In this document: piece after piece, positions 35,501 through 38,500 of the stretch
How the letters are laid out: each line of letters opens with the position of its first letter
How positions within the stretch are numbered: the stretch's first letter is position 1
From: Escherichia coli
Lineage (GTDB): Bacteria; Pseudomonadota; Gammaproteobacteria; Enterobacterales; Enterobacteriaceae
Length of the DNA: 64,000 nucleotides
Assembly: GCF_001677475.2 (NCBI RefSeq)
Contig: NZ_CP015229.1
Strand: one strand, 5' to 3'
Position numbers: made by a program

Positions 35501-38500
35501 AAGTCTGCGCTTTGCTACCCGCCTGCGGGATGGAATTGGCGACTGTAACCGGGTTGCCCTGGAAATGAACGGTTTGTGACATGATTATCTTTCCTGTTTA
35601 CATATAGTTAACGTCACACCTAGTTTATGCTAACTGTCAATAACACAGCAAACGCTATTTGCGCTTAATCCGCAGACAACCGCGACAACAAGGAGTAAAG
35701 ATGAGAACCGTTAAGGTTTTTGAGGAAGCCTGGCCCTTACATACCCCGTTTGTGATTGCTCGGGGAAGTCGCAGTGAAGCGCGCGTGGTGGTGGTTGAAC
35801 TGGAAGAAGAAGGTATTAAAGGCACCGGTGAATGCACGCCGTATCCGCGTTATGGAGAAAGTGATGCCTCGGTAATGGCGCAAATTATGAGCGTCGTGCC
35901 GCAATTAGAGAAAGGGCTGACACGGGAGGAGTTGCAAAAAATTCTCCCTGCCGGCGCAGCACGTAATGCGCTGGATTGTGCATTATGGGATCTGGCGGCG
36001 CGAAAACAGCAGCAATCGCTGGCTGATTTGATCGGCATAACGCTTCCCGAGACAGTCACCACTGCCCAGACGGTAGTCATCGGTACGCCTGATCAGATGG
36101 CCAATAGTGCATCAACACTCTGGCAGGCAGGCGCGAAATTACTGAAAGTAAAGCTGGATAACCATCTTATCAGTGAGCGGATGGTGGCAATTCGCACAGC
36201 TGTGCCCGATGCGACGCTGATCGTTGATGCAAATGAATCCTGGCGTGCAGAAGGGTTGGCGGCGCGTTGCCAGCTATTGGCGGATTTAGGCGTTGCGATG
36301 CTTGAACAACCGCTTCCTGCGCAGGACGATGCGGCGTTGGAGAATTTTATTCATCCGTTACCGATTTGTGCAGATGAAAGTTGTCATACTCGTAGCAATC
36401 TGAAGGCGCTGAAAGGGCGCTATGAGATGGTTAACATTAAGCTCGATAAAACGGGTGGCCTGACGGAAGCGCTGGCGCTGGCGACTGAAGCACGTGCACA
36501 AGGTTTTAGTCTGATGCTGGGCTGCATGTTGTGTACCTCTCGTGCCATTAGCGCCGCTTTACCGCTGGTGCCGCAGGTCAGTTTCGCCGATCTTGACGGA
36601 CCGACCTGGCTGGCGGTAGATGTGGAACCGGCGCTTCAGTTCACAACGGGCGAATTGCATCTTTAGGATGCCAGCGCAGCAAGTTTGCCATCGCAAAGAG
36701 ATATTTTTCGCTGGCTTCGTCGGAGGAGATGGGCGGAAACTCTGCGGTGATGCAATGCAGGTTGAGATCCGCACACCAACTACCGAAAGAGCCAGGTGTT
36801 TCATAACCGACGCTGGTTACCAGAGGCAATTCAAACGCCTGGGCCAGCCATTCGCCTAATTCGCTGTGTCTGGGATCTTCAATACAGGCCAGCGGATCGT
36901 GGAATGAGACCACCCAGGCAGGTTGAATGCGGTGTATAAGCTGGCACAGCGCCTGGGTTTCAGGTTCGGAGCCAGGTTTGTCACCTGTCAGCAATACGAC
37001 ATCACGTTCTTCAGCGGCGCTGTTCCAGCGATAAACGGTTTCACTTTCCTTCCAGTTCGCCGCCGGAAAGTTTCTGTTTAAATCCACACCATTAGCATTG
37101 GCCCGTAACCCCAACTGGCAGCCGTCAGGATTCACACACAGCACCACATGATGACGGCGCAAAGAAGGTGTCAACGTCCGCAGAGCACAGGAGAGCGTGA
37201 CGATCGAAGAGTTTTCATCACCGTGAGTGCCAGCCAGAATCAAACCACTTTCGCGGCTGGCTGCAGGGGCAGGAAACCAGATTAACGGCGCGCCCAATAA
37301 TGAACGTCCGTAATGTTCTGTTCCGGGCGGAAATGCGCCGCGTTCGGCGCGTGGGCGAGTTACGGTCATGATCGTCTCTGGTTCAGGAAGTATTACAGGC
37401 AGTGTTGTGCAAATTTTGCGGATTATCAAATCCTTTTCTTCAACGCTATGTTATCGATCTTGTATCACTTTTTTGATGGAAGTTGTTTGCATTTTCATTG
37501 ATGTGCAGATATTAGAATTGTCGTAATGTTATATACATGGCGTATTTTATTCTTACTGGTTCTACACATGTTAATCGCATCTGATTGATCAGTTCACCTT
37601 AATAAGTTTAATAAATCGTACTGCACATAGTACAGTACGATGGTAGCTATATAATTGATTTACATGAAGAATGGCTTATCGCCATCAGTCCCGGGTTGAT
37701 TGATTCCTATATTCTCACCAATGTGTTTCTCAGGTTTATCGATGATATCTGTAATTAATGCTGCGACACTCTTACGTGATACGATCGTACCTTTGAATGG
37801 TTCATTGCGTGAGGTAAGCTCATAATCAATAATATCTTCATCAGTCAGCCAGGCAGGGCGAAGAATTGTATATTCCAGTCCAGAAGCCTCAATTGCATCC
37901 GCAGCCCTGCGGAATGGTTTTAGGGGTTCACCAATAACTGCATTATTCCATTCGCCAAATTTTCCTGGAACTTCATCATAAATACCGAGGGAAAGAACAA
38001 AGATCAGACGTTTAACATCACAGGCTTTCATCGCAGCGATCACTGAATTTGCCTGAATATCTAAATCTTCCCCCGTAAGGTTGGCATACACAACATCCTG
38101 TCCCTGCATGGCCTGCTTCAGTGCTGCATGATTCAGTACATCCCCCATAATAATCTTGCTATTAGTGGGATAGGGTTTGTGGATTTTTGCTGGCTGACGG
38201 GCAAATAAAGTTTGTTTAATGGTTTGTTTATCTGCCAGTTGATTAATCACATGGCGGGCTATCTGACCGCCAGCACCAAGAATCAGTACATTTTTCATGA
38301 AGCTTTTCCCAGATTATTGGCAGCAATATGCCAGGCCATATCACTATTACGGATTTGAATATGTTTCATTACAGAGTTTCCTCAAAGAACGGAGCTAATA
38401 CTGAAATTGATTCAGCCACATAGACTTTGCCGTCATAAAGATCCATATGGTTTGCGCCTTCAACAATGTGATAGCGTTTATCCTGGCTTGATGCTCGATC

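What the first reader, a model, noticed from the sequence alone, without database searches (positions are those of the whole stretch)
36641..36666. Convergent 26-nt overlap of ycjG and mpaA coding ends
The stop codons of the plus-strand epimerase gene and the minus-strand amidase gene overlap by 26 nt, with no room for terminators between them. Transcripts would be mutually antisense at their 3' ends, giving potential for transcriptional interference between two steps of murein-peptide recycling.
Basis: seen in the sequence. Interest (0 to 1): 0.25.

Follow-up and report, generated by a model that had tools for sequence, protein, structure and literature searches.

The report
Known ycjG–mpaA tail-to-tail gene overlap
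Two E. coli cell-wall-recycling genes on opposite strands do share their last 26 bases, but the overlap is already annotated and published, and it looks like a harmless by-product of a one-base deletion rather than a regulatory device.

Summary
ycjG (+, 35701-36666, stop TAG) and mpaA (-, 37369-36641, stop TGA) overlap by exactly 26 nt. RefSeq annotates the same overlap in E. coli, and the junction is present in 5414 of 5426 complete E. coli genomes.

The overlap is not special to E. coli. The two conserved protein cores abut with no spacer across Enterobacteriaceae and Erwiniaceae, but the overlap length varies: 4, 10, 19, 21, 26, 33 or 47 nt. Five lineages have an inserted spacer instead.

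The 26-nt version differs from the widespread 10-nt version by one base. That deletion turned the ycjG stop TGA(G) into TAG. It also frameshifted the end of mpaA, adding five residues. Those residues evolve like non-coding sequence (2 synonymous vs 15 non-synonymous variants), whereas the YcjG tail FTTGxLHL is conserved.

No terminator-like hairpin lies at the junction. Published data place a Rho-dependent termination region about 390 nt past the ycjG stop, antisense to mpaA. A 2025 RNA-seq survey already lists ycjG-mpaA as a convergent "excludon". So 3' antisense transcript overlap is supported, but regulatory interference is untested, and both genes are reported in one regulon (PgrR).

Verdict: real, ordinary and already known. 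Low interest.

The parts
35701..36666 (+). ycjG CDS (L-Ala-D/L-Glu epimerase, 321 aa), stop TAG at 36664-36666
   Evidence: ORF list. RefSeq annotation of the homologous locus. PDB 1JPD matches full length. NCBIfam NF011708 matches 1-321 of 321.
36641..37369 (-). mpaA CDS (murein tripeptide amidase, 242 aa), stop TGA, which is the reverse complement of 36641-36643
   Evidence: PDB 5HXD matches residues 1-237. NCBIfam NF007897 is 237 positions long and residues 1-236 match it.
36641..36666 (.). 26-nt convergent coding overlap: 20 nt coding in both frames plus both stop codons
   Evidence: Direct reading of the sequence. The same overlap is annotated in VCSW7, MG1655 and O157:H7. The junction is present in 5414 of 5426 complete E. 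coli genomes.
36664..36665 (.). Position of the 1-nt indel, inside the ycjG stop codon, that separates the 26-nt arrangement from the 10-nt arrangement of other genera. On the mpaA strand the sequence is CCT-AAAGATG here against CCTCAGAGATGA in the 10-nt genera.
   Evidence: The MAFFT alignment places a single gap at this column. Junction sequences of 80 species are.
36644..36658 (-). Last five MpaA codons (AIRPL, residues 238-242), a frameshift-derived tail showing no purifying selection
   Evidence: In the doubly coding 20 nt the mpaA frame has 2 synonymous and 15 non-synonymous variants, against 64 and 11 elsewhere in mpaA. The tail lies beyond the family model and beyond the deposited PDB chain.
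36640..36663 (+). Last eight YcjG codons (FTTGELHL), conserved across genera. This is the constrained frame in the overlap.
   Evidence: The residues are near-invariant in 24 loci of the 26-nt clade, except position 317. The motif FTTGxLHL or a close variant is seen across most of the 80 species.
36987..37186 (+). C-rich, G-poor stretch of the ycjG read-through RNA, antisense to mpaA. It spans the published Rho-dependent termination position at about 37058.
   Evidence: C/G ratio is 1.3-2.0 in 80-nt windows. Adams et al. 2021 supplementary file 2 gives 1390286 (+), Rho score 3.94, significance 7.2e-5. Coordinates were mapped through two 61-mers from that paper.

Best explanation
This is a genuine, already annotated tail-to-tail overlap of two real genes. 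It is best read as a neutral by-product of stop-codon drift at a junction that has had no spacer for a long time.

Shown: the conserved cores of YcjG (ending ...LHL) and MpaA (ending ...LLRWHP) abut within a few bases throughout Enterobacteriaceae and Erwiniaceae. Each stop codon therefore has to fall inside the other gene.

Inferred from phylogenetic distribution: in the ancestor of the Escherichia-Citrobacter-Salmonella group, one base was lost inside the ycjG stop (TGA-G became TAG). ycjG kept its stop. The mpaA frame shifted, changing the protein end from ...PQR* to ...P(K/R)D plus five more residues, and ran on to the next stop. The overlap grew from 10 to 26 nt.

Shown: the added MpaA tail evolves without constraint, and the YcjG frame dictates the sequence.

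From the literature plus composition: with no intrinsic terminator at the junction, ycjG transcription continues about 390 nt into antisense mpaA and is stopped there by Rho.

From the literature only: mpaA transcription runs antisense into ycjG. The resulting 3' antisense overlap of the two mRNAs is real, but it is most likely a tolerated side effect at two weakly expressed genes of one regulon rather than a control device.
For: Geometry and annotation.

Overlap lengths in 82 sources: 10 nt in 44, 26 nt in 28, 4 nt in 3, 33 nt in 1, 47 nt in 1, and spacers of 88-331 nt in 5. Outgroups: Pantoea 26 nt, Erwinia 21 nt, Cronobacter 19 nt. In these the overlap comes from extended YcjG tails and short MpaA ends, and synteny mppA-mpaA-ycjG-tpx-tyrR is conserved.

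A single-base gap separates the 26-nt and 10-nt arrangements. Citrobacter CCTAGAGATG is exactly Enterobacter CCTCAGAGATG minus one C.

Constraint: in the doubly coding 20 nt the ycjG frame has 10 synonymous and 7 non-synonymous variants, and the mpaA frame has 2 and 15. That matches non-coding frames (13 and 73; 4 and 71). mpaA outside the overlap has 64 and 11.

The MpaA family model is 237 positions, PDB chain 5HXD ends at residue 237, and the Vibrio MpaA structure ends at the equivalent place.

No terminator-like site, no significant fold and no Rfam family at the junction.

A Rho termination region antisense to mpaA, and no 3' end listed in or antisense to ycjG (PMC7815308). A C-rich, G-poor zone at that position.
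Against: The zero-spacer arrangement persists across two families, which could reflect selection rather than inertia.

The Rho call rests on low read counts (47, 14, 58, 68) from one experiment in one condition.

The direction of the indel, deletion versus insertion, is inferred by parsimony from distribution, not from a rooted tree.

No expression data were analysed here, so a modest regulatory effect of the antisense overlap cannot be excluded.
Confidence: 0.75

Rival explanations
1. Functional excludon. The terminator-less convergent junction is kept by selection because antisense read-through tunes or balances MpaA against YcjG. The mechanism would be polymerase collision or RNase III cleavage of the paired 3' ends.
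For: ExcludonFinder lists ycjG-mpaA in its core E. coli set. The ycjG strand reads about 390 nt into antisense mpaA. The abutting arrangement is conserved from Escherichia to Pantoea and Erwinia.
Against: With overlapping coding ends, that algorithm must call an excludon whenever both genes are expressed, so the listing adds little.

The two enzymes act consecutively in one pathway (PMC9928106). A regulon table places both in the PgrR regulon (PMC5934670). Mutual exclusion has no obvious logic for such a pair.

Five lineages carry an inserted spacer, four of them with a small gene and a terminator hairpin, so separation is tolerated.

Overlap length and the identity of the extended tail are not conserved.
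Confidence: 0.13
2. Noncontiguous operon. mpaA transcripts continue antisense across all of ycjG and into tpx. mpaA and tpx would then be co-transcribed while silencing ycjG.
For: ExcludonFinder lists mpaA-ycjG-tpx as one of three noncontiguous operons in MG1655. Adams et al. list no - strand 3' end inside or antisense to ycjG. No intrinsic terminator is predicted on the - strand until about 35667-35649.
Against: As far as the text read shows, the listing is a coverage-based call and no validation of a continuous mpaA-to-tpx transcript is described there.

The - strand RNA antisense to ycjG is C-rich and G-poor almost throughout (C/G 1.2-2.3) and untranslated, which makes it a good Rho substrate.

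Absence of a mapped 3' end may only reflect low mpaA expression.
Confidence: 0.1
3. Collision-driven bidirectional termination at the junction. The small palindrome GCATC-TTTAG-GATGC (36656-36670) over the ycjG stop would pause both polymerases, as proposed for convergent gene pairs from SEnd-seq data.
For: The palindrome exists and forms a 6-bp stem in the predicted fold. The general model is published (bioRxiv 10.1101/2022.10.23.513370).
Against: The fold of the junction is no better than shuffled sequence (z -0.45 and -1.8). The palindrome is not conserved in the 10-nt clade. Published data place the + strand termination about 390 nt further on and show it to be Rho-dependent. That model works best for highly expressed pairs.
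Confidence: 0.04
4. Artefact: a sequencing or annotation frame error misplaces one of the stop codons.
For: None found.
Against: Identical geometry is seen in independent assemblies: the junction is in 5414 of 5426 genomes and the arrangement is in 25 further species-level loci. A crystal structure of YcjG includes its full C-terminus.
Confidence: 0.01

Closest known systems
Convergent (tail-to-tail) overlapping gene pairs of prokaryotes, created by stop-codon movement (for example the census in PMC4161906)
   Same: Two bona fide genes on opposite strands share their 3' coding ends. The overlap arose by loss or shift of a stop and read-on to the next in-frame stop. It is one of about 75 such pairs counted in E. 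coli.
   Different: At 26 nt it is longer than the 4-nt and 10-nt versions found in relatives. Here the event can be traced to a single base lost inside the partner's stop codon, which stayed a stop.
Excludons and ExcludonFinder's E. coli 'excludome' (PMC12288877)
   Same: Neighbouring, oppositely oriented genes with overlapping transcripts. This exact pair is in the published list.
   Different: Excludons as defined there overlap in untranslated regions and give mutually exclusive expression of the two genes. Here the coding regions themselves overlap, the genes serve one pathway and are reported in one regulon, and no reciprocal expression has been shown.
Rho-dependent termination of untranslated or antisense read-through RNA (mapped genome-wide by Adams et al. 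2021, PMC7815308)
   Same: After the ycjG stop the RNA is untranslated. It enters a C-rich, G-poor stretch, and bicyclomycin raises downstream signal about 4-fold.
   Different: The termination zone lies inside the partner gene's coding sequence rather than in a dedicated 3' untranslated region.
Bidirectional hairpin terminators between convergent genes, such as the 16-bp palindrome between tyrR and tpx in this same window (35038-35072)
   Same: Same gene orientation and the same problem to solve.
   Different: The ycjG-mpaA junction has no spacer and no such hairpin.

Membership tests
Convergent overlapping gene pair | Two coding sequences on opposite strands share 3'-terminal nucleotides | tested here: met
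   36641-36666 is shared. The same is annotated in RefSeq.
Convergent overlapping gene pair | Both reading frames encode real, conserved proteins rather than a mis-called ORF | tested here: met
   Solved structures 1JPD and 5HXD. NCBIfam equivalog hits of 678 and 478 bits. Orthologues in 80 or more species.
Convergent overlapping gene pair | Both frames are under purifying selection within the overlap, that is, a functionally dual-coding segment | tested here: not met
   The ycjG frame has 10 synonymous and 7 non-synonymous variants. The mpaA frame has 2 and 15, indistinguishable from non-coding frames. This feature is not required for membership. It shows that only one frame is constrained.
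Excludon | Transcripts of the two neighbouring genes overlap in antisense | not testable with these tools
   Literature only: the ExcludonFinder list and the Rho region about 390 nt into antisense mpaA. It is also a logical necessity if both full coding sequences are transcribed.
Excludon | Expression of one gene lowers expression of the other (mutually exclusive expression or RNase III processing) | not tested
   No data were found for this pair. Shared membership of the PgrR regulon argues against it.
Noncontiguous operon (mpaA-ycjG-tpx) | A single RNA spans mpaA and tpx across the antisense strand of ycjG | not testable with these tools
   Only a coverage-based listing exists. No intrinsic terminator is predicted on the - strand within ycjG.
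Bidirectional intrinsic terminator between convergent genes | A G+C-rich hairpin flanked by A and T runs lies between, or at, the two gene ends | tested here: not met
   No terminator-like site near 36641-36666. Junction folds have z-scores of -0.45 to -2.2 and no U-tract.
Rho-dependent terminator | Untranslated C-rich, G-poor RNA upstream of the termination zone, and bicyclomycin-sensitive read-through | tested here: inconclusive
   The composition criterion is met on the + strand at 36987-37186. Bicyclomycin sensitivity comes from the literature and rests on low counts.

The most novel reading that the evidence does not exclude
The spacer-free, terminator-free convergent junction of mpaA and ycjG has been kept since before Enterobacteriaceae and Erwiniaceae diverged because mutual antisense read-through couples the output of two consecutive murein-peptide catabolic enzymes. 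It might also link mpaA to tpx in a noncontiguous operon. The wandering stop codons would then be noise on top of a selected architecture.
Probability: 0.1. Interest if true: 0.4.

Novelty: already known. Interest (0 to 1): 0.12.

Why it matters
It matters little. The overlap has been in the E. coli annotation for years, and the pair is already listed among transcriptionally overlapping neighbours.

What this check adds is a tidy example of how convergent overlaps arise and drift. One base was lost inside one gene's stop codon. The codon stayed a stop, but the loss frameshifted the partner's last codons and lengthened the overlap from 10 to 26 nt. The added residues are evolutionarily free.

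It also warns that "excludon" calls for pairs whose coding ends overlap follow from the geometry and say nothing about regulation.

Tried and rejected
- **First overlap count:** it gave spurious overlaps of 94 and 247 nt because tblastn alignments ran through stop codons. It was redone from an internal anchor codon.
- **Intrinsic terminator at the junction:** the scan and folds of both strands found nothing beyond chance. A weak promoter-like match at 36640-36669 (9 of 12) is at the chance level (7 found against 5.9 expected).
- **Rfam at E <= 1 over 34800-39500:** no match.
- **O157 and the 237-residue 5HXD chain:** I tested whether a shorter O157 mpaA explained it. It does not; O157:H7 mpaA is also 242 aa, so the deposited chain lacks the last five residues for a reason not established here.
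- **Papers not held:** the E. coli double-stranded-RNA paper (PNAS 2014) and Uehara & Park 2003. ExcludonFinder's supplements are not held either, so per-sample overlap lengths could not be read.
- **The 39-aa ORF filling the spacer in four lineages:** no Pfam or NCBIfam match and no homologue in the window.
- **Not run:** structure prediction, the representative-protein search and the metagenome scan. The verdict does not depend on them.

Full report
**1. Observation**

The window around 36641-36666 reads ...TTCACAACGGGCGAATTGCATCTTTAGGAT.... The + strand ORF 35701-36666 ends GAA TTG CAT CTT TAG, with the stop at 36664-36666. The - strand ORF 37369-36641 ends CGC CCG TTG TGA, whose stop is the reverse complement of 36641-36643. 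The two coding sequences share 26 nt: 20 nt coding in both frames plus the two stops.

The region is Escherichia coli. A 1.9-kb query matches 5413 of 5426 complete genomes over at least 80% of its length, at 95-99% identity. RefSeq annotates ycjG (L-Ala-D/L-Glu epimerase, 966 nt) and mpaA (murein tripeptide amidase, 729 nt) with the same 26-nt overlap in strains VCSW7, MG1655 and O157:H7.

A 150-nt query centred on the junction is found in 5414 of 5426 genomes: 4343 at >=99% identity, 1070 at 95-99% and one at 90-95%. The 25 rows listed, sampled evenly down the ranking, all cover the full query and lie under both gene annotations.

**2. Both genes are real**

YcjG matches PDB 1JPD across all 321 residues, including the C-terminal ...FTTGELHL. 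It also fills the 321-position NCBIfam equivalog NF011708 end to end.

MpaA matches PDB 5HXD, but that chain stops at residue 237 (...WHPKD). The Vibrio MpaA structure 4AXV ends at the equivalent point. The NCBIfam MpaA model NF007897 is 237 positions long, and residues 1-236 match it. The last five residues of the 242-aa E. coli protein (AIRPL here, AIRPS in K-12) therefore lie outside the family core. O157:H7 encodes the full 242 residues, so the shorter PDB chain is not a strain difference.

**3. How unusual is it?**

In the 64-kb neighbourhood there are 10 convergent gene pairs. Nine have spacers of 20-172 nt and only this pair overlaps. Genome-wide, a published census counts 75 convergent overlapping pairs among 4047 adjacent pairs in E. 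coli (PMC4161906). The pair belongs to a known minority class and is not an outlier.

**4. Comparative anatomy**

I fetched 80 species-level loci carrying mpaA. For each I located both stops from internal anchor codons. A first attempt over-counted because alignments ran through stop codons.

| Overlap or spacer | Sources (of 82) | Where |
|---|---|---|
| 10 nt (TCAGAGATGA) | 44 | Enterobacter, Lelliottia, Leclercia, Kluyvera, Kosakonia, Raoultella, Trabulsiella, Pseudocitrobacter and others |
| 26 nt | 28 | Escherichia, Citrobacter, Salmonella |
| 4 nt | 3 | |
| 33 nt | 1 | |
| 47 nt | 1 | |
| spacer of 88-331 nt | 5 | L053, L054, L057, L059, L060 |

Three Citrobacter youngae-group loci reach 26 nt the opposite way. 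A change from CCTAAAG to CCTTGAG destroys the ycjG stop and creates an earlier mpaA stop, so MpaA is short and YcjG gains seven residues.

Outgroups found through protein look-ups also overlap: Pantoea 26 nt, Erwinia 21 nt, Cronobacter 19 nt. In these the overlap comes from extended YcjG tails and short MpaA ends. The gene order mppA-mpaA-ycjG-tpx-tyrR is conserved.

So the conserved feature is that the two protein cores abut with essentially no spacer. The length of the overlap, and which protein carries the extra tail, are not conserved.

In four of the five lineages with a spacer, the spacer holds a conserved 39-codon ORF and a terminator-type hairpin. In the fifth it is an 88-nt palindromic, REP-like element. 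Separation of the two genes is therefore tolerated.

**5. Origin of the 26-nt version**

On the mpaA strand, the 10-nt genera read CCT CAG AGA TGA. Several Citrobacter read CCT AGA GAT G.., and E. coli reads CCT AAA GAT G... MAFFT places a single one-base gap after CCT.

On the ycjG strand this is TGA-G becoming TAG. The stop codon lost a base yet stayed a stop at the same place. The mpaA frame shifted, replacing ...PQR* with ...P(K/R)D plus five more residues up to the next in-frame stop.

The 10-nt state is spread over many genera, and the 26-nt state is confined to the Escherichia-Citrobacter-Salmonella group. Parsimony therefore favours a deletion in that group's ancestor. This direction is an inference, not a rooted reconstruction.

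**6. Which frame is constrained?**

I classified the variants among 24 loci of the 26-nt clade.

| Segment | ycjG frame (syn / non-syn) | mpaA frame (syn / non-syn) |
|---|---|---|
| 20 nt coding in both frames | 10 / 7 | 2 / 15 |
| 96 nt of ycjG upstream of the overlap (mpaA frame non-coding) | 59 / 27 | 13 / 73 |
| 117 nt of mpaA beyond the ycjG stop (ycjG frame non-coding) | 4 / 71 | 64 / 11 |

In the overlap the mpaA frame behaves like a non-coding frame, while mpaA outside the overlap is clearly constrained. The YcjG tail F-T-T-G-x-L-H-L is nearly invariant. MpaA residues 238-242 take many values at each position. The MpaA tail is a passenger on the ycjG sequence.

**7. Transcription**

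No terminator-like site lies near the junction. Folds of both strands are not, or only marginally, more stable than shuffled sequence (z -0.45 to -2.2), and no hairpin is followed by a U-run. Rfam finds nothing.

Two 61-mers printed in the supplement of Adams et al. 2021 (PMC7815308) map uniquely to the window. They give the relation window = MG1655 coordinate minus 1353228.

That paper lists a Rho termination region on the + strand at 1390286, which is window ~37058 and about 390 nt past the ycjG stop, antisense to mpaA. The Rho score is 3.94 and the significance 7.2e-5. The read counts are 47 upstream and 14 downstream untreated, and 58 and 68 with bicyclomycin. The + strand RNA is C-rich and G-poor at just that place (C/G up to 2.0 at 36987-37186).

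No 3' end is listed inside or antisense to ycjG.

ExcludonFinder (PMC12288877) lists ycjG-mpaA among 165 convergent excludons seen in at least 50% of 58 RNA-seq samples. It also lists tpx-ycjG as a divergent excludon and mpaA-ycjG-tpx as one of three noncontiguous operons. Its criterion is overlap of coverage-defined transcript ends. For a pair whose coding ends overlap, that criterion is met automatically once both genes are expressed.

**8. Function and regulation**

MpaA cleaves the gamma-D-Glu-meso-Dap bond of the murein tripeptide. YcjG epimerises the resulting L-Ala-D-Glu (PMC9928106). The same paper states that mpaA expression is diminished by PgrR in rich medium. A regulon table lists ycjG and the ycjY-...-mpaA operon as members of the PgrR regulon (PMC5934670).

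Consecutive enzymes in one regulon are poor candidates for mutually exclusive expression.

**9. Interpretation**

The most likely account (about 0.75) is as follows. The junction has long been spacer-free, and stop codons drift within it. One such event, a one-base deletion, produced the 26-nt overlap and a dispensable five-residue MpaA tail. Transcription of each gene runs into the other and is ended by Rho. That is documented for the ycjG strand and inferred for the mpaA strand. The antisense overlap is tolerated at low expression.

The rivals are less likely:
- A selected excludon that balances the two enzymes (about 0.13).
- A true noncontiguous operon linking mpaA to tpx (about 0.1; it is not exclusive of the others).
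- Collision-driven termination at the small palindrome over the ycjG stop (about 0.04).
- An artefact (about 0.01).

**10. Verdict**

Its inference about missing terminators and antisense 3' ends agrees with published data. Its suggestion of regulatory interference remains untested and is not favoured by the comparative evidence. The feature is already known and ordinary, so interest is low.

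Noticed in passing
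window 37331-37350 (- strand), 5' end of mpaA: A GC-rich hairpin, GCGCCG-AACG-CGGCGC followed by AUUU, lies in codons 7-13 of mpaA. Adams et al. 2021 list a Term-seq 3' end exactly there (MG1655 1390559 = window 37331, 39 nt into the ORF). The hairpin is strong (-10 to -12 kcal/mol) in most Escherichia, Citrobacter and Salmonella loci and weaker in most other genera. It may be a premature termination or processing site.
   Followed up: partly
window 35038-35078 (tyrR/tpx junction): The 43-nt spacer between convergent tyrR and tpx holds a perfect 16-bp palindrome (35038-35072), which looks like a classic bidirectional terminator. The dominant published tpx 3' end (MG1655 1388306 = window 35078) sits on the tpx stop codon, upstream of that hairpin. 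This is unexplained.
   Followed up: no
window 37660-38298 (- strand): The window has an intact 212-aa SDR-family oxidoreductase between ycjY and mpaA, as in strain VCSW7. K-12 MG1655 has only a pseudogene fragment there, so the window is not from K-12.
   Followed up: no
L053 3798-3914; L057 3822-3938; L059 3813-3929; L060 3842-3958: In four lineages where mpaA and ycjG do not overlap, the spacer carries a conserved 39-codon ORF on the ycjG strand: MxxWE[DE]E...KRMIDTV followed by a hydrophobic helix. In L053, L057 and L059 it is followed by an A-run/GC-hairpin/T-run terminator-type element. It has no Pfam or NCBIfam match and no homologue in the window. It may be an unannotated small membrane protein.
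   Followed up: partly
L054 3727-3814: An 88-nt spacer between mpaA and ycjG consists of palindromic, REP-like sequence. This is another way the two genes have been separated.
   Followed up: no
L015, L017, L018 about 3683-3708; L022 3683-3729: In the Citrobacter youngae group, a two-base change from CCTAAAG to CCTTGAG removes the ycjG stop and creates an earlier mpaA stop. MpaA loses its tail and YcjG gains seven residues (LHLKDASAKD), and the overlap is again 26 nt. L022 lost only the ycjG stop and overlaps by 47 nt.
   Followed up: yes
L059 (record CACSKA010000006.1): The record is titled Chryseobacterium sp. 18061 but carries an Enterobacteriaceae-type mpaA-ycjG locus (MpaA 85% identical to E. 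coli), nearly identical to L057. The assembly is probably mislabelled or contaminated.
   Followed up: no
window 36640-36669 (+ strand): A weak sigma-70-like match (TTCACA, 18-nt spacer, TAGGAT; 9 of 12) lies inside the overlap. The number of such matches in the region equals the shuffle expectation, so it is probably chance.
   Followed up: partly
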